Shown piece after piece: positions 2,974 to 46,374 of a stretch of DNA of 64,000 nt (the stretch's first letter is position 1; each line of letters begins with the position of its first letter). This stretch comes from Eledone cirrhosa (taxonomy: Eukaryota), in the NCBI GenBank assembly GCA_964016885.1, contig OZ024750.1, positions 9,672,001-9,736,000 of the forward strand. The letters are read 5' to 3'. Both the position numbers and the translations under genes were made by a program. The notes beneath the pieces are model-generated. The model searched no databases and was not told where the DNA came from. It worked only from the letters and a program-made list of their open reading frames with translations.

Positions 2974-3233
2974 ACACACACACACACATACATACACACA
3001 CAAAAGAGCTTTTCAAATGAATGGCAAGAGTAGTTTAAGAGAAACTGCTAAATATTATGTAGGATGTACTATTTTAGTTTAAGTACTTTTTAAGGTTGCT
3101 ACGTGAAACGAAATTACTCAAAGAGTGAGATATACTGATATTAAAAATTAAAGCAGAGAAAATAGACAGAGAAAAGCATATATGCATATATATATATACA
3201 CACACATACATACATGTACAAGTATATGTATGC

Positions 3234-3274
<41 letters not shown>

Positions 3275-3330
3275 TACATATACTTGTACATGTATGTATG
3301 TGTGTGTATATATAGATATATATATATATA
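2575..3330. repeat. Compound microsatellite field (TA)n/(GA)n/(CT)n/(CA)n; similar fields recur throughout the window (e.g. 33045-33210, 56098-56600, 62370-62890, 63888-63970)
   Basis: Directly visible dinucleotide tracts; source of the [12 protein letters not shown] pseudo-ORFs. Confidence 0.95.
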
Positions 3331-3556: not shown

Positions 3557-3903
3557 ATCATCATCATCATCATTTCATTTTACGTCCGCTTTTTCCCTGC
3601 TTGCAAAGGTGGGACGGAAACTGATGCTGGCTTGATTTCTACAGCTGGATGCCCTTCCTAACACCAACCTCATTTACAGTGAGTGCTGGGTGCTTTTTTG
3701 CCGTGGCACCTCCACGACCACTTTGCAGTGGAATGATAGGGACCCCTGTCCCTATCATCTCATTTCTACAGCTGAGTAAACTGGAGCAATGTGAAATAAA
3801 GTGTCTTGCTCAAGGAAACAACACATCACCCGGTCTAAGAATTGAACTCACAACCTTTCGATTGCAAGGCCAATGCTCTAACCACTAAGCCATGTACCTC
3901 CAT
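3557..3903 (-). mobile_element. tRNA-headed, CORE-like SINE (family B here) with RTE-type tail
   Basis: Reverse complement of the copy at 39182-39521: (cat)n tail, tttacgtccgctttttccctgcttgcaa, body, and tRNA-like head ending ctctaaccactaagcca. Confidence 0.85.
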
Positions 3904-4099
3904 GTATAATGAAATTATTGTGTAAAGTGCTCAATCATAGGGGATATAATACCACTGGAGTGAAAATCATATTATCTATGAACGGAATGGAAAATACATA
4001 AAAATTAAAAGGATAATTTAAAATGTACAGACTATTCTATTTTCACTCTGGTGGTATTATATCTCCTATAATTGAACAGATGCTTCTTTGTGTATGTTC

Positions 4100-10925: not shown

Positions 10926-11843
10926 TATAAAAGGTAAAGGTGACCTTGGAAGAATTTGAACTCAGAATATAAAGAACCAGAACAAATACTGGAAGACATT
11001 TTGTCTGATTGTCTTATGATTCCACAAATCTTTTGCAGTCTGGAAAATTCATTTAGTAAAGTTTGTAAATTTAGATAAATTTGTATGCTATGAGGAAATG
11101 TGAGTTACTGACATTTAAAGAGAGAAATATTTCCAAGATGAACATTTTTTTTTCTCTTCAAAGGAAAGATTTGCTATAAATGTCAGTACTTACATTTATC
11201 CAAACTTATACAAAGTTGTGAACTTATTATAACATATTGGCAATATATAATATATATAATAAATGTAACTTCGAAGTCACTGCTTTCCTACTAAGAAAAA
11301 GGAAATTTACACCCAACTCACGAGGACTGATTGCTCATTCAGTTAATGTTTGACTATCTTAACTACTATGGTATTTCAAACACACATTCATATATATATA
11401 TATATATGTGTGTGTGTGTATGTATGTATTACCAAACCATCAAGTATGGTTTAATAATTGTTATGGAATTAACTCTATACCCAACTCGTCCTTCAGACTG
11501 AGTGCTCTACTAACTTTGGATATAAACCTTCTGATTTTTCACTACAGTATATATATGATATAGAGAGAGAAAGAGGTAATATCCCAATTGTTATGCCCAA
11601 GTTCAATCAAGGGTAACCACAGTTAGTAAGGTACACAAAACATGATATATATACATATATATTTAAAGAGATCGTAAATGCACTTGTAGCTTTGGGGAAT
11701 TTTATTTACAATAACTTTACAGGTTCAGCGATTTTTGACGATTTTCAAAAGTGACAAGGAAAGACATGAAGTTGTGCTTGTCTTGCTCACGTCTGAGTGG
11801 AGAGAGAACCTGGCTCAAAGCGACGTTTGTGTAAAATGCCATT

Positions 11844-14945: not shown

Positions 14946-16071
14946 GCAGGGTATAAAGTCATGAGAGAAGGGTGGTGTGATCAGATGTATGCGGGGGGTG
15001 TTTTTTATTCCAAAATGACTGACTGTATAGGCACGTGTGTTTTTCTTTTCTGTCTCTTCCTCTTCTCGCTCTCTATCTTTCTATTTCATTTGATGAAGGA
15101 CTAGTGTCCTAAACGTTAAGACTCATTTCCTATTATTTCATGCATTAAACTCATATATTTCTTCATTGTATTGTATCGTTTGCTCTATTTCTGTTTACTT
15201 TTTACACACATTAATGTGAACAAAATTATCTACATACATGTACTGACAAAAATATCATATTGAAAATTAATAAATGAGAATCTTTGAATATCTTTCTTTG
15301 TAGAAGATTCACATTCACCTTTTAGACAAGTTGAAAAATTAAATCTATTAATATGAAGACAGTTTGTAATATTAAAATGAATATTAATATCTCAAAGTGA
15401 CTTCATATTTCTATCTAAACATTATGAAACAGGTCAAGTAGCTTTGGTTAGAAAAAAAACTAATCTGAGTACTTTTATTTATTTAATTAACAATTCACAC
15501 ATACCTACTTCATTTTTGTTTATTTAGTTTGAAAGTTATTTGTAATAATGGTATAAGGTGCCCAAGAACAAGTGTGGGTGTGTATTTATATATATAAGCA
15601 AAAGGGATATTCAATTTGTTGGTAATTCAACAAATATAAATGTTTATAACTGATTCAGAGCACTCGACAGATTTTCTGGAGTATAATATTCAATGATATT
15701 AAATAAATGGAAACTATATTTATAAAACCATATTTCTTCTATTATATATATTTCAAGGGTACCAAAACTTTGGTATGCTTTCATCAGATAAAATACAAAG
15801 TTTGTTTTATAAATTTTGACATAACCAAGAAAAAGATACCTTAACGGTTCAAGTTTTCCAAGGAAAACTTAAACCATTAAGTATCTGAAGACTCTGCCAA
15901 TTTGAGACCTTAGAATGACAATGATTTGATCATTAATAGTCATAATTAATAGTCTTTAGGAATAATTAATAATTTATTAAGCCAGATTAACAGTGATAAA
16001 TTTTTGATTAGATTCATTTGGATATCTTTTCTAGAAAGAAACATATAGAAAAATACTTGCAAGATATTATG

Positions 16072-25525: not shown

Positions 25526-25568
<43 letters not shown>

Positions 25569-25887
25569 CATTCGTATGAAATCTCTCTCTTATATTCCAT
25601 TCGTATGAAATCTCTGTCTTATATTCCATTCGTATGAAATCATCAGGAATGTATAAATGCCTATACTCATCATCATCATCGTTTAACGTCCATTTTTCCA
25701 CGCTAGCATGGGTTACTCGAGTTGCCCCGTTGTGAGATAAGCCAGGTCCAAAGACCATGTCTTACTAATACAGAACTGTTTCTGGCTTGGTTTCTACGGC
25801 TAGGTTCCATTGGGAATCCACCCATAATTACACACACACACACACACACATATATACACATACACACACACACTAAAGTAAACATAT

Positions 25888-34450: not shown

Positions 34451-37396
34451 ATTGCTTACTGGTGCGAATAAGAGCACCAAAACTGCAGCATGGTGAGAGG
34501 TAACAAAAAGAATCACACCACATCATCCTTCACATGGGTTAACAAGTTAGAGGTACTGTTCGAAAAATATATTGCAGTCCATTGCAACCTGTCCTGGAAA
34601 GCATTTGATGGTTGCACTAAAATTCCATATCTAATGGTGTAGGTATGTTTTATTGGTAAGAGTATATGAGTGTTTTAAGGCCTTTCCTCTGCTAAAACAA
34701 GAGTTAACTTTGAAGGGATTCCATAACAATCTTCTCCATTTTGCTTGCTATCACCCATTGTAACACTGCCAGTGTGTTGGCTTGCTTCAAAAAGTATTAG
34801 AGGGAGGCTCTGGCACCACTTGTGGTGTGTGACCAATTGACACAGGTAATGTTGACTTGATATTTTCTTGTTTTGATTCTATATTTTCATGTGAAATATT
34901 TTTGTAATTAAGTAATAGAGATATAGGTGTATATGTGTTGATTTTTGATAGTTATAGCATTTGTGTTTGTGTGTATATATATATATTCAAAATAGGGAGC
35001 TCGCAGGACATGTGTGTGTGTGTAAATACAGGCAGCCAGATTCATAGATTAACATCATTTTTGTTTGAATATCCATTTTTTTCACTGCTTACGTGGGTTA
35101 GATAGGTCTACTAAGCATTATATCTCTATTCATCTTGATCTTTGGTCATTTATTATCTTTTTATGTGAGACACAGCATTGGCGATCTGATCTCACCAAAT
35201 TCTATTTTTTTTCCTATATCTTACTTTGATGTAGATACCTTCCACTGACACCACACACACCATTTTGTTGTTGTTTTTTTCATCCGACTCTCATCTTCCA
35301 TAAACGTATCACATGTCCATATCAGTGCAGTCATCTCCACTGATGTCTTTAATGCCAGACCATTCTCTCTCATCTTACATCTACTCTGCCTTTCATGCAG
35401 GTTAATATTACACTTCTAACACTTCATACTTTGCTTCCTCACTTCTCACATGCTTCTGCAAGTCTTTTACATTTTATTAAGTTATATATTCAGTTATTTA
35501 TTTATTTATTTTAGAGTAGAAATAGTTTCTTGCCCTCGGGAAGAAGTGGAAGAGAAATATGAGGGGAAGGAAAAGAAGGGGGAGAAGAAGAATAAGAAAG
35601 CTATACCATGCAATATCAAAACTATCTGGGTACCTCAAAGTGGTTGACAAATCAACTAGAAATAGCAGCTGAAATCACAGTATACTATCATGAATAATAA
35701 AAACTAAATATAAAGCGCATTAGATATTGAATGTAGTGTCCTAGATAAGTAAAATGAAAAATATGAGGATAATCAGAGCTGGAATGCTTTTGATCCTAGG
35801 TCTGCTTAACGAAGGTTGGCCTAGGGCTAGAGAAGAAGAACAATAAGAAGAACTAAAGTGATATAATCCTTGCTATGTCTGTTGTATTATAATACAGCTA
35901 TGTCAGTAATAATACTTTCCTATACTGTACTACCATAGTAACTAAGTAACTTACTCTGTGTTCTGTATTTTGTATCTGTCTATATACTCTGTGATGGCTT
36001 TACTGGATATGGCTGGGTTTTAACCTCTTTATTGGCTCTAGTAATACACTAACTCACATGGCTTCTATTGGACTAGAACTGTTTCATTCGAATTAAACAG
36101 TTTAACCCTTTTAGAAGTCATTTATATATATATATATATATATATATATGATATTAATTTGATTAAAACAACAGGAGGCCAGATGGGGGTTATCCTTTTA
36201 AAGATTCATCCATTCCTCACTGTATTTCTCACAAATTACACTACTAATGTAGTTTCAATTAATTTTGAAAGCCATCAAAAATTTTCAGAAATTCAATGAA
36301 AATAATTCCCTTTTCCATTATTGAGCTGACTTTAGAGTTGAAATCCCACTGAGGTTAACTTTGCTTTCCCTTCCCTCTTTCTGGGATCAATAAAATAAAC
36401 TACCAGTGAAGAACCAAGGTCAATTTAATCGACTTTCCTCTCCCTAAAATTGCTGCCTAAATTAAAACTTTTGGAACATTATTTTTTTTAAATTATTTTT
36501 TTAAATGTTGGTGGAAAGGTTTTAATATAAATATGAATATTTTTTAATTGGGATTTTGGATCATAAAAACAAGGGCAGTTTCAGGGGGTTTGGTGTCAAA
36601 AACTCCAGTTTTTCTTTTCTCTATTTTTATTTATTCCTTAAAATGTTTTTTCTATATTTCCCCCACTCAGTTTTCTAGTTTTACACTTGTTTTTACATAC
36701 CAGAAATAGATATATGCATGTTTAAATAAGGGATTTGTTGGTGGGCATTTAGCTACAGGTCACACCATATTGAGTATTCCTATGATACCTACGATGAAAG
36801 ATATTCCAGCAGTGAACCTCCTGTTTTATTCTATTCTGGAATAGTGTATCATCATTTAAGGTCCATTTTCCAGGCTAGCATGGGTCTAGAGGTATACTAC
36901 CTCATTCAGTCTTCCTTTGACTTTTTTTAAAGACAGTAGGGTGTGTGGTTTATGAAGAATTGTCTACTATGTCTAGCAGGCTGAACTACTGATTAGAAAA
37001 TTCCTCCTTAGTTCAGTACAGTACATGTTTTTTTTTACTGTGATATGATTTTTTTCTAAAAATAATTTAGAAATATATGTTTAAAAACTATTTCAACAAG
37101 GAAAGGAAGCTACCTGTTGAACTGGAATAAATACCATCCTATATTTTGCTTGAGGGAGAAGGCAATGCCAAAGCCTGTGTTTGATATCATGGTGGGCTGC
37201 TTTGATTTGCTAATGAAATCTCTTTATCACTTAACCTTGTACCTTCTAATTTCATGTAAATTTGTAAACATGTGTTGTGTATGTCTGTGTATCTATATAT
37301 GTATGTGTATGTATGGTATGTATGTCTGTTTATATATTGTGTGTATATCTGTGTATGTCAGTGTGTCTGTGTATGTCTTGTGTGTATGTATATGTG

Positions 37397-37510
37397 TGAG
37401 TAGGTCTGCAGGGGTGTGTATGTATGGGTATGGATTTAAACACAACTTTACAATTGTAAAGTTGTGTTCAAATTCATACCCATACATACACACCCCTGTA
37501 GACCTACTCA
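37397..37510. repeat. Spacer-less palindrome with 57-bp arms and 3 mismatches
   Basis: Centred on caa|ttg (37453/37454); the arms were checked base by base. Confidence 0.92.
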
Positions 37511-38146
37511 TACACATACACATACACACAGATGTAAGTTGAACTGTATAACCACTGAGCCATGTCCCTTCACTAATTACAGAACAGTGTTAACACTAAC
37601 ACCCCTCCATCTATATATCACTCTTACTTCTCTCTCTCCTTCTTTCTCTCTCTCTCATTTTCTTTTGTCAGTTTCTCTTACTTTCACTCACCACTCTCTC
37701 TCTCTCCATATATATATATATATATGTGTGTGTGTATATATATACACACACAGAGACATCAACACACGCACACAGACATACAGAGAGAGAGAGAGAGACA
37801 TACTCACACACAAGTCATGAGCTCAGCAATTTGTCTCTAGAAATTTAATTAAAAATGTAAAATACAGAAGAAATGTGAGTGAAATTTTACATTGCAATGT
37901 CTTTTCCTAAAAATCAATGACTGCCATTTATATATATATATGTTTTATATTCAGCATTAATTTGTATGTTTGTTTAGGCAGTCATTAGTTATCTTTCCTT
38001 ATTCTTGTTCTTGTTCTTTGCTGGTAGCAGGTGTTTAGACCAACTCCTCTGTTTCATTTCTTCTTCATTTTAGCCTTCTTTCTATATATTCATGCACATA
38101 TACAGATACACGCATACACATACACGCACACGCACACACACACACG

Positions 38147-38181
<35 letters not shown>

Positions 38182-38373
38182 TATATAGAGTCTGGGCCCG
38201 ATGGCTGAGCTCTTGGTGTTTCAAAAGCTAGTTCCAGAGTAGGAACTAGTTGAAACGGCCAGAGCTCAACCAGTCCTCATTCTTTATAATGTAACCATAC
38301 TCCACTACCCCATGTATCAAGTAGTCTGTTGAGTAATGGTCTAACTAGTTTCAAACTGATTCCATCTCTCTCT

Positions 38374-38427
<54 letters not shown>

Positions 38428-38494
38428 ATATATATATATATATATAGAAGAGCTTCTACAGGACTAGAACTGTTTCATTCGTGAGAAATCATCA

Positions 38495-38547
38495 GAGATT
38501 CCTGATGATTTCCCACGAATGAAACAGTTCTAGTCCTGTAGAAGCTC
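38495..38547 (+). ncRNA. Minimal type-I hammerhead ribozyme motif (PLE-type) forming one arm of a 54-bp fold-back
   Basis: gagattc-CTGATGA-tttc ccac gaat-GAAAcag ttctagtc ctGTA-gaagctc. Stem III is acag/ctgt and stem I is ttc/gaa. Predicted cut after 38540; stem II is weak. Confidence 0.6.
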
Positions 38548-39181
38548 TTCTATATTAAAATATTTATATATATATATAATATAAGTTATTCTGGGTTGAA
38601 TTGGAAGTAACCACTGTAAGTAAGGTACTCAATACATAGCAGAGTATAAATATTTTAATATAGAAGAGCTTCTACAGGACTAGAACTGTTTATATAAACT
38701 TAAGAAAATTAAGACACAGAACTTCAGGGTCGTCAGCTGTTGTAAGGATATTGTTACATACCAACTGTAACATTGGGGTTGACAGTGGAATAGAGAAGTG
38801 TCAATCAGTAGAATTGGAATTCCTCAAAGAACCACTAAAGACTTGATGTGTGAAGTCATGTGTGGAGCTGTGTGTGACCATGATGGTATTTTAGTTGTAT
38901 CATCATATTGTCTCTCTACTGTTTGACCTTTATTCATTCCCCAAATCACATACATAATATATGCACATGTGTATAAATATGCATGTATGTTTAAATATGT
39001 TGACACTGCTGAAGTATAATTAGCTTAGAAGCTTTGAATATACATGTACCAGTGTAAATATACACTCACATTCACACACATACTCACACACATGCTCACA
39101 CACTCAGACACATGCTCATAAATACAATGAAATATATAATTCAAATATATACCCACGCATATATCTACATAAATTGTATAT

Positions 39182-39521
39182 GGAGGCATATGGCTTAGTG
39201 GTTAGAGCATTGGTCTTGCAATCGAAAGGTTGTGAGTTCAACTCTCAGATCGGGTGATGTGTTGTTTCCTTGAGCAAGACACTTTATTTCACATTGCTCC
39301 AGTTTACTCAGCTGTAGAAATGAGATGATAGGGACTGGGGTCCATATCATTCCACTGCAAAAGTGGTCGTGGAGGTGCCACGGAAAAAAAAGCACCCAGT
39401 ACTCACTGTAAATGAGGTTGGTGTTAGGAAGGGCATCCAGCTGTAGAAATCAAGCCAGAATCAGTTCCCGTCCCACCCTTGCAAGCAGGGAAACGCGGAT
39501 GTAAAATGAATGAAATGATGA
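39182..39521 (+). mobile_element. Full-length SINE family B: tRNA head + CORE-like domain + family C module + RTE tail
   Basis: A-box tggcttagtggttag, B-box gagttcaactc, ccttgagcaagacactttatttcac, then aaaaagcacccagtactcactgtaaa, gttaggaagggcatccagc, cccacccttgcaagcaggga and (atga)n. Confidence 0.88.
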
Positions 39522-41239
39522 TATGCATCACATAAATATGCATTTTATATATTTTTTAAAGATACATTTGATATTTATAAACATGCATGCATTCATAATC
39601 CCTCACACATATTCACACATGCATAAACATATCACTTTCTCGGACTCTCTCAATGTATGTATGTGTACACTTACACATACACACACACCTGGTATGACAT
39701 ACACACTCATACATAATTACACTAGTAGAAGACCAAACACTCCTTCCAGCAGGTCCTGCCTGTCAGAAGCAACCATTTCCAACTGATCCGGTTGCTACTG
39801 ACAGGACCTGCTGCATATGTATGTATACATACATACATACATACATACATACATACATACATACTGCGATAGCTGGCACCTTCAAAATATGCAAAACATT
39901 CTTGCGATTCAAGGGATGACAATTTCTTTTCTTTTACAACCTTGCCACCAGGAAGGTGGCCAGTCAAAAAAAATATACTCGAAATTAAGAGAAAGAGATA
40001 ACATACATACACATATATATATATATACTCATTTTTTATTGTTTAATTGCAATTGTGTGTTATGAAAAGCTAAAATAACAGTAAGTACATTGAAGTGTAA
40101 ATATCAATCAATGTGTAAACAGTTAAGATCCATTAAACAATTAGATCTCATCAACTTGTTAAAAAGAAAGAAAACCACAGCAGACTACATTAAGCATTAA
40201 AAGAACTTACTGGGAACTAGATATGTTATATATTAGATAATGGATGACCAATCAGTAGCTGTTGTATTTAGTTAACTGGAGAATAATTTTCAAATCTGTC
40301 ATGAAATTGACATGAGAAAGTGAAAAAATAGATAAAAACAAAAATCAACATAAAGATTTATTGTTGGGTTACTTGGAGTTTGATGAGGTGATCTCTGCAG
40401 GAAGGGGTGTTTATGTTTTACTTTTCTGGCTTTTAAAAGAATAAATAAATATCAATATATTTCATCATATCTCTTTTCACTGCATACACACACTGGGCAA
40501 TGTTGTTTGAGGAAGACCAGCAGTCGCCCATGCATACCAGCCTCCTCTCTTCACGCCACCGATGATGTCCAAGGGAAAGGCTATGGCCGATACAGGTTAG
40601 CATCAGTGACGTCGCAACTTATTTCTACAGCTGAGTAAACTGGAGCAACGTAAAATAAAGTGTCTTGCTCAAGGACACAACGTATCACCCAGTCCAAGAA
40701 TCGAACTCAGAACCTTTCAATTTCATGCCCAATGCTCTAACCACTTTCCATGCGCCTTCACATATATTATATACATATTATGTATACACTATATATTATA
40801 TAATAATAATGAAATTATTGTGTACAGTGCTCAGCTGCACTACAAAAAAGATTATAAGGAAACTTTACGTGAATCTCACATCTAGGATTGAACCCCAGAG
40901 CAGGATCTCCACCCCCACTAGGCCACCAAGACAGCTATATATATACACTATATGTTTCAAAATAAAAATAAAATGAGCGGTGGTGGAGTTTGAAAGAGTA
41001 GAACAATAACAATAAGAAGAAGAATTGTTTCTACTTTTGGCACAAGGCCAGCAATTACCCAGTGCATTACTGGTACTTTATTTTATCGACCCCGTAAGGG
41101 TGAAAGGCAAAGTTAATCTCGGTGGGATTTGAACTCGGAATGGCAAGGGCCCTAACTATGCTAGAAAGCATGGCGTCCGACCCTCTACCGATACTGTTGG
41201 AAGGTAAAAGAGAAACAGACAATAAGATAGAGAATTGGT

Positions 41240-45841: not shown

Positions 45842-45893
<52 letters not shown>

Positions 45894-46014
45894 GGAGGTG
45901 AGTTTTATTGTAGCACAATAAAGCAATGCAAATATCGGATAAGTAGCACTCCACAGTTTATAGGACTGGAGTATAAATAATATAAGATCAAAAGATGGTT
46001 AAAAGAGTTCCAAG

Positions 46015-46085
46015 TATTTTATTATGCGCATTTCAAAATCAAATATCATCATGGGATGATATTTGCATTCTCATCAGATAAAATA
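46015..46085 (-). ncRNA. Type-I hammerhead ribozyme with palindromic stem III (PLE-type)
   Basis: Minus strand: tattttat-CTGATGA-gaatgcaaatatcatc ccat gatgatatttgatttt-GAAAtgcgcATA-ataaaata. It has an 8-bp perfect stem I, a long stem II and the ATGCGCAT palindrome. Confidence 0.78.
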
Positions 46086-46374
46086 GGGAGACATGATATG
46101 AAGCTTAAAAAACACTTGCCATGATGATATTTGTTTTTGAAATGTGCATAATAAAATACTTGGAACTCTTTTAACCATCTTTTGATCTTATATTATATAT
46201 ATATATATATATATTCATCCACTTTTCTAAAAATTAAATCATACACTAAACGCCAGCACCAACAGTTTTGCAAGAGATATCAACATGAATGGACCTGTTA
46301 TTTTTATCTAAAGACATTTTTTCCAATTCCAGCCTGCCCGTCCCCTCAATCTATCTTATCTCTCATTCTTTCTT

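What the first reader, a model, noticed from the sequence alone, without database searches (positions are those of the whole stretch)
38442..38691. Triple fold-back built from a second, unrelated hammerhead motif
Seen: 54-bp arms 38442-38495 and 38502-38555 differ at one base around a 6-nt spacer, and the fold-back junction falls exactly at the CTGATGA core. A third copy (38645-38691) is the reverse complement of 38522-38568. Both strands therefore carry a CTGATGA...GAAACAG...CTGTA core, but only the plus copy has stem I. Fragments of the same family occur at 36061-36090 and 25562-25649. Inference: template switching at the ribozyme during reverse transcription repeatedly produces hairpins. 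Together with the 46-kb cassette this suggests a general 'hammerhead + fold-back + (TA)n' class of small non-coding retroelements (retrozyme-like) in this genome.
Basis: partly seen in the sequence, partly recalled or inferred. Interest (0 to 1): 0.75.

Follow-up and report, generated by a model that had tools for sequence, protein, structure and literature searches.

The report
Penelope hairpin marking capped transcript start
This mirror-image repeat is one of thousands of short stubs of a protein-coding Penelope-type jumping gene, likely made when both cut DNA ends copy the front of one RNA and run off its predicted capped start, which in this family lies right at the ribozyme motif; it is not a new class of ribozyme element, but it likely records a missing step of how these transposons insert.

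Summary
The palindrome and the type I hammerhead motif are real. They are the end piece (pseudo-LTR) of a high-copy Hydra-clade Penelope-like element (at least 8,256 tail copies; a natural 713-aa RT–GIY-YIG copy starts 174 nt behind the ribozyme), not a retrozyme. About 4,500 copies fold back at this point. In 89 position-sampled copies, 5' ends pile up at −8..+3 of the CUGAUGA core (44 of 56 inverted arms), not at the cleavage site (1 of 56). The two arms carry the same marker allele (29 of 29). The pile-up lies about 30 nt behind TATAAATA and carries an untemplated G (65 of 80 unambiguous junctions), the mark expected from copying an RNA cap. In two other families the wall lies 69 and 80 nt upstream of the ribozyme, so the ribozyme does not set it. 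Best reading: twin priming from two internal start sites, run-off at the capped 5' end, then head-to-head joining. No RNA data could test this. The architecture is published; I did not find the run-off mechanism in six paper searches. This scan already reported it on other DNA, including this genome.

The parts
38425..38441 (.). (TA)n target tract at the left end of the insertion
   Evidence: sequence; 50 of 56 inverted arms and 76 of 89 tail ends abut (TA)4 or more
38442..38495 (-). Inverted short arm, element positions 0..+53 (0 = C of CTGATGA); its 3' end lies at the first of the two fixed end points; it has no stem I 5' strand
38495..38501 (+). Fold-back junction G|AGATTC. A38496 is the inferred transcript start (-6) and the first base of stem I. 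G38495 is shared: last base of the left arm, or the inferred cap-derived G
   Evidence: start site is inferred
38496..38568 (+). Second arm, element -6..+66, holding the complete hammerhead motif and ending in TA
38496..38546 (+). Type I hammerhead motif: stem I 38496-501/38541-546 (one A-G mismatch), CUGAUGA 38502-508, stem II 38509-520 (U-U at its base), GAAA 38521-524, stem III 38525-527/38536-538, predicted cut after 38540. Predicted to be sequestered by the 54-bp hairpin at this locus
   Evidence: activity untested
38578..38691 (-). Third piece, element +20..+130 with the tail, tail-to-tail with the second arm across a short TA tract. It shares rare variants with the second arm, so it is likely a local inversion-duplication of the original long arm
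36061..36120 (.). Older degenerate hairpin of the same family, apex near +15
25562..25650 (-). Weak family fragment (-4..+22) with three short tandem repeats of part of it
   Evidence: E 0.02-0.03
11601..11643 (-). Old tail fragment (+74..+116) of the same family
45891..46190 (.).
15590..15860 (-). End piece of a third hammerhead-bearing Penelope-like family (family 3), used as a control

Best explanation
This is a head-to-head pair of short end pieces of a Hydra-clade Penelope-like retrotransposon in a TA repeat, likely made when both nicked target strands prime reverse transcription on one RNA and both copies run off its predicted capped 5' end. Shown: family membership, the two fixed 3' end points (+53..+66 and about +130), identical marker alleles in both arms, the pile-up of 5' ends at -8..+3, a TATA motif about 30 nt upstream, and an untemplated G at the pile-up. 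Inferred: a promoter in the upstream pseudo-LTR starts the mRNA at the A at -6, so the hammerhead is the very front of the mRNA. The element's enzyme starts internally at two sites 60-70 and about 136 nt from that end. The two run-off cDNAs are joined end to end, often using the cap-derived C as 1-nt homology or a few filler bases. Priming on the downstream copy of the same signals would give the long read-through copies. The hairpins lack the TATA box and would be dead ends. The third piece at this locus is likely a later local inversion-duplication of the tail-bearing arm.
For: Parent: L031 shows end piece + hammerhead + tail followed by a broken RT-EN frame. L187 holds an unbroken 713-aa ORF 174 nt behind the core, with RWR, DKT, YRDD, CxCx5C, IVY..YIG, CxxC and CxH. 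Counts: 8,256 exact 30-nt tails; 4,498 fold-backs at the core on each strand, control 1; 759 arms reading through upstream (different pattern lengths, so not a strict ratio). Positional sample, n=89: 56 have an adjacent inverted arm. 5' ends at -8..+3 in 44 of 56 inverted and 36 of 89 long arms. End rate per base is 0.10 and 0.06 there, against 0.002-0.007 elsewhere. One template: 29 of 29 hairpins agree at a 13:16 marker, p=1.5e-8; 49 of 50 listed agree at another. TATAAATA-like motif at -35..-39 in 22 of 32 upstream contexts printed, 4 of the other 10 not being read-through copies. Base before AGATTC in the first 100 of 1,002 junction rows (counted by hand): G 75, C 20, T 3, A 2. Leaving out 20 ambiguous rows it is G in 65 of 80. 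The template base is C in 27 of 29 read-through copies. Family 3: G in 65 of the first 100 of 148 rows, template C in 13. Family 2 wall at -66..-70 (7 of 14 inverted arms, none beyond); family 3 wall at -80. Literature: two internal RT start sites bound the tail, both strands are cut and extended, and uncut RNA is the main substrate (PMC11167929). A 5' untemplated G is read as a cap signature for L1 (PMC9341517).
Against: No RNA was seen, so start site and cap are inferred from DNA alone. In family 1 the inferred start coincides with the 5' edge of stem I, so this family cannot by itself separate start from ribozyme structure. The commonest mapped end is -5, not -6 (13 against 7 inverted arms). 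Families 2 and 3 have no canonical TATA box. Family 2 mostly shows the templated C at its wall, within a CATATG palindrome; one G was seen. Most family-3 Gs can also be read as the last base of the inverted arm. RTs add untemplated bases without a cap (own knowledge). The T-rich tract plus CAG at -7..-5 also looks like a 3' splice site. This locus is atypical: both hairpin arms end at the short end point.
Confidence: 0.72

Rival explanations
1. The folded or protein-bound hammerhead stalls the RT at the 5' edge of stem I and triggers template switching.
For: The pile-up coincides with the 5' strand of stem I. Stem I covaries across subfamilies, AGATTC/GAATCT 57 and AGCTTC/GAAGCT 11. A stem I-homology join exists (48 genome-wide). 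The ribozyme is protein-assisted in the anole element.
Against: The walls of families 2 and 3 lie 69 and 80 nt from their ribozymes. The cleavage site is not enriched (3 of 89, 1 of 56). A stall does not explain the TATA spacing or the extra G.
Confidence: 0.1
2. Same RNA start, but one cDNA snaps back on itself (or an antisense RNA self-primes, as proposed for rotifer Penelopes), and the endonuclease trims the second arm; there is no twin priming.
For: Identical arms are predicted equally well. Some junctions look like 3-4 nt loops. Palindromic junctions were read as self-priming in PMC3846280. One subfamily has an AGCT palindrome at the apex.
Against: The dominant subfamily has no palindrome there. 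Many junctions have both arms reaching -5/-6 with filler between them, some with an extra G on both arms. Some insertions have non-overlapping arms that meet at +53..+59 (L039, L043, L045, L057), as twin priming on one RNA predicts.
Confidence: 0.12
3. The wall is a 3' splice site or a splicing-related RNA end at CAG (-7..-5), as the D. virilis Penelope intron ends at helix I.
For: T-rich tract plus CAG directly upstream. Family 3 has CTGAC plus a pyrimidine tract. PMC4209133 maps the intron end to the 5' end of helix I.
Against: Arms keep the AG and show no shared upstream-exon sequence; the fillers vary. The family 3 wall lies upstream of its AG, and family 2 has no AG at its wall.
Confidence: 0.04
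4. A self-propagating non-coding retrozyme-like hairpin element.
For: One sibling locus (L002/L219) shares this hairpin's junction, arm mismatch and rare variants, so this hairpin was copied at least once.
Against: Every segment maps to a coding element. There is no tandem array. Junctions differ from copy to copy. Only 2 of 6 exact-junction loci are siblings, and the second lies in a composite with another repeat between 18-bp direct repeats.
Confidence: 0.02

Closest known systems
Hydra clade of C-terminal EN+ Penelope-like elements (Craig et al. 2021, PMC8557442; passages and section 11 read)
   Same: Short single ORF, RW[KR], DKT, CxCx5C linker, C-terminal GIY-YIG, CxxC/CxH, canonical hammerhead, (TA)n targets, inverted 5'-truncated copy with a one-sided tail.
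   Different: The parts read do not map the fold points or tie them to a transcript start. The tail here is about 65-75 nt, not 30-40. The supplements, which may list this family, were not read.
Anole Poseidon element PAc in vitro (Frangieh et al. 2024, PMC11167929; parts 1-2 of 4 read)
   Same: Two internal RT start sites bounding the tail, both strands cut and extended, AT-rich targets, uncut RNA as template.
   Different: Different clade. There the ORF starts inside the ribozyme, here 174 nt behind it. Joining of the two cDNAs and run-off at a cap were not addressed in the parts read.
Adineta vaga Penelopes with inverted pLTRs and palindromic junctions (PMC3846280; passages read)
   Same: Head-to-head inverted pLTRs, solo pLTRs, TATA and Inr-like motifs in the pLTR.
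   Different: Read there as self-priming on an antisense template. Here the dominant subfamily has no palindrome and shows an untemplated G.
L1 twin priming and cap-derived 5' G (PMC9341517 passages read; Ostertag and Kazazian 2001 seen only as a reference entry, content recalled)
   Same: Second-strand priming on the same RNA gives a 5' inversion; an extra G marks a full-length cDNA.
   Different: Here both primers start at fixed internal sites and the arms usually overlap fully, which gives palindromes.
Metazoan non-LTR retrozymes (PMC7229834 passages; bioRxiv 10.64898/2026.07.22.740005 part 1 of 5)
   Same: Type I hammerhead, related to Penelope-like pLTRs.
   Different: Retrozymes are 150-450 bp tandem repeats expressed as circles. 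This is an inverted single-unit stub of a coding element.

Membership tests
Hydra-clade PLE | Single ORF, element under 3 kb, RT with C-terminal GIY-YIG | tested here: met
   713-aa ORF with QLDI/MGAS/YRDD and IVY..YIG. Pfam GIY-YIG is only weak (E 0.012, below cutoff; E 5e-4 for another copy). The 3' UTR is swollen by microsatellites, so total length was not fixed.
Hydra-clade PLE | RWK motif present, GxKF/Y not conserved, DKG changed to DKT | tested here: met
   RWR at 38, GFKT at 58, DKT at 116, no GxK[FY]
Hydra-clade PLE | CxCx5C linker; CxxC and CxH in the EN; no CCHH | tested here: met
   CNCLNKEAC 566, CDLC 666, CMH 694. The absence of CCHH was judged by eye from the recalled position of that motif.
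Hydra-clade PLE | Canonical hammerhead in the pLTR; insertion in (TA)n | tested here: met
Hydra-clade PLE | Groups with Hydra references in an RT tree | not tested
   No named references were on hand; 1,403 unnamed homologs at about 40% identity
Type I hammerhead ribozyme | Core CUGANGA, GAAA, UH with three helices and covariation | tested here: met
   Pattern; stem I covaries, 57 and 11 arms against 2 mismatched, one of them this locus. No Rfam hit.
Type I hammerhead ribozyme | Self-cleavage | not testable with these tools
   The minimum-energy fold of the motif alone is not the hammerhead fold; at this locus the hairpin would dominate.
Non-LTR retrozyme | Tandem 150-450 bp units each with a hammerhead | tested here: not met
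   Inverted single arms of 55-140 bp
Non-LTR retrozyme | Non-coding family with its own master sequence | tested here: not met
   Colinear with a coding element
Non-LTR retrozyme | Expressed as circular RNA | not testable with these tools
   No RNA holder listed

The most novel reading that the evidence does not exclude
Penelope-like elements build their inverted ends by a retrovirus-like strong-stop step done twice. One enzyme dimer starts at two fixed sites near the capped 5' end of its own mRNA, primed by both strands of a TA repeat, and most insertions are the two run-off cDNAs joined cap end to cap end. In this family the mRNA begins with the hammerhead itself, so cleavage would remove the cap and could switch the RNA between translation and use as template.
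Probability: 0.5. Interest if true: 0.7.

Novelty: new member of a known kind. Interest (0 to 1): 0.5.

Why it matters
How Penelope-like elements form their inverted pseudo-LTRs and tails is named as open in PMC8557442 and PMC11167929. The breakpoint statistics here give base-level predictions: where the RNA starts in three families, that it is capped, and that the ribozyme is copied uncut. They also explain why this genome holds thousands of small hammerhead-bearing palindromes that look like a new non-coding element but are by-products of a coding one.

Tried and rejected
No RNA holder was listed for the promoter-ribozyme-ORF stretch, so there is no verdict on expression. Contigs of 4 runs hold the family and other junctions, but none spans this locus. 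An assembly artefact is therefore not excluded for this one locus, but it is unlikely given thousands of different junctions and a sibling on another chromosome. An apparent systematic difference between arms at +11 (14 of 26) came from my query; 49 of 50 listed hairpins agree there. The idea that the AGCT palindrome sets the apex was dropped because the dominant subfamily lacks it. The cleavage site as breakpoint was rejected. Rfam, Pfam RT families and PDB gave nothing useful. Automatic end mapping for family 3 failed because hairpin copies served as references; its wall was read from the printed sequences and (my notebook says -88; the recount is -80). The alignment had two rows with wrong coordinates and was not used. 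The first end mapping with one reference mis-called subfamily ends and was redone. L113 was dropped as a duplicate of L111.

Full report
Coordinates. Element position 0 is the C of CTGATGA (window 38502). The window is G000:C10:9672001-9736000 of a 3.0-Gb animal assembly.

1. Observation. The two 54-bp arms, the single mismatch, the 6-nt spacer and the 47-bp third copy are as described. The + strand carries a type I hammerhead pattern with the cut predicted after 38540. Rfam does not score it. The third copy extends to about 38578 and covers +20..+130. A transcript through the locus would fold as one long duplex (-90.9 kcal/mol), so this copy of the ribozyme is predicted to be inactive.

2. 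What it is. The motif recurs across the genome (59 matches from 40 of 164 candidates scored). In L031 the motif and a tail of about 70 nt sit between a truncated 3' UTR and a broken RT-endonuclease frame, the partial-tandem layout of Penelope-like elements. L187 holds an unbroken 713-aa ORF that begins 174 nt behind the core. Its motifs match the Hydra definition in section 11 of PMC8557442. No tree was built. An exact 30-nt tail pattern occurs 8,256 times. Stem I covaries between subfamilies: 57 arms AGATTC/GAATCT, 11 AGCTTC/GAAGCT, 2 mismatched, the window copy being one. An inverted 5'-truncated copy, a one-sided tail, a hammerhead and (TA)n targets are all described for this class.

3. Is the fold point special? 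Yes. A pattern for two cores joined head to head within 14 nt gives 4,498 per strand against 1 for the control. Read-through into the upstream sequence gives 759. I took the first 90 of the 100 tail hits listed on C1 and dropped one duplicate. Of 89, 56 have an adjacent inverted arm. 44 of 56 inverted arms and 36 of 89 long arms end at -8..+3. The end rate per base is 0.10 and 0.06 there, against 0.002-0.007 on either side (ends called by BLAST against natural copies, 13 long arms censored at -400). The cleavage region (+36..+41) holds 3 of 89 and 1 of 56. A join at stem I or the cleavage product occurs 48 times genome-wide. The RNA was therefore copied uncut or religated, in line with PMC11167929.

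4. One template, two primers. Inverted arms end mostly at +53..+66 (53 of 56) and long arms at about +130, like the two RT start sites that bound the tail in the anole element. Both arms carry the same allele of a 13:16 marker in 29 of 29 hairpins, and of another in 49 of 50 listed. Some insertions have arms that meet without overlap at +53..+59. Many junctions have both arms reaching -5/-6 with filler between them. This favours twin priming (L1 concept recalled) over snap-back, without excluding it.

5. Why there? Read-through copies carry a TATAAATA-like motif at -35..-39 in 22 of 32 contexts printed, about 30 nt before the A at -6 (the TATA spacing and initiator consensus are recalled). Where an arm reaches -6, the next base is G in 75 of the first 100 of 1,002 rows, or 65 of 80 after removing ten hairpins with a single ambiguous base (hand count). 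The template has C there (27 of 29). An untemplated G is the recognised trace of copying a cap (PMC9341517). Controls: the 46-kb cassette also belongs to a coding family (DKT-bearing frame in L173), and its wall is at -66..-70, with 7 of 14 inverted arms ending there and none beyond (the 30 loci were chosen by score). Family 3 breaks at -80, with G in 65 of the first 100 of 148 rows. The wall therefore does not follow the ribozyme. Against this reading: no RNA data, a modal end at -5, no canonical TATA in families 2 and 3, almost no extra G in family 2, family-3 Gs that can be microhomology, and a splice-acceptor look-alike at -7..-5 (one search reports an intron ending at helix I in D. virilis).

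6. This locus. The junction CATCAG|AGATTC fits a run-off end with a shared G. The same junction arose in four other loci with different variants. The second arm and the third piece share a variant seen in 2 of 81 arms. The sibling L219 has arm and tail contiguous. A local inversion-duplication of the long arm is the simplest account of the 'triple'; a second insertion from the same master is possible.

7. Novelty. The element type and its layout are published. Six searches of the held library and the passages read did not show the capped run-off explanation. Subscription papers and the supplements of PMC8557442 were not seen and may hold this family. I noted the start-site idea. One search had shown earlier scan notes on Hydra membership and twin priming in this genome, and one search then showed several notes with the same run-off reading in this and other genomes. 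These are unchecked notes and are not counted as support. Papers seen: PMC8557442 passages and section 11; PMC11167929 and PMC4209133 parts 1-2 of 4; bioRxiv 10.64898/2026.07.22.740005 part 1 of 5; PMC3846280, PMC2377424, PMC9341517 and PMC7229834 passages only.

8. Verdict. Interest 0.5, for the testable account of how Penelope-like inverted ends form.

Noticed in passing
L219:1470-1812 (same place as L002): Sibling of this hairpin (same junction, same arm mismatch, same rare variants) fused to a SINE-like repeat (label recalled) and flanked by an 18-bp direct repeat; the hairpin was apparently carried along once by another retroposition event.
   Followed up: partly
   Followed up: partly
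window 38188-38365: Degenerate fold-back of a fourth repeat family, 60 bp left of the finding, with relatives in 8 fetched loci.
   Followed up: partly
window 3186-3319 and 37379-37528: Near-perfect palindromes with no spacer, made of microsatellite-like sequence and without a hammerhead core; origin not determined.
   Followed up: partly
window 39173-39522, 3557-3910: Dispersed repeat with a tRNA-like head (Rfam tRNA 29.7 bits at 39191-39246); likely a SINE.
   Followed up: no
L074:2120-2160, L097:2165-2400 and other loci: Further hammerhead-bearing families turn up in the flanks, some as fold-backs.
   Followed up: no
L187 and L031, 3' of the ORF: The 3' UTR of the element is swollen by kilobases of (TA/TG)n sequence.
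   Followed up: no
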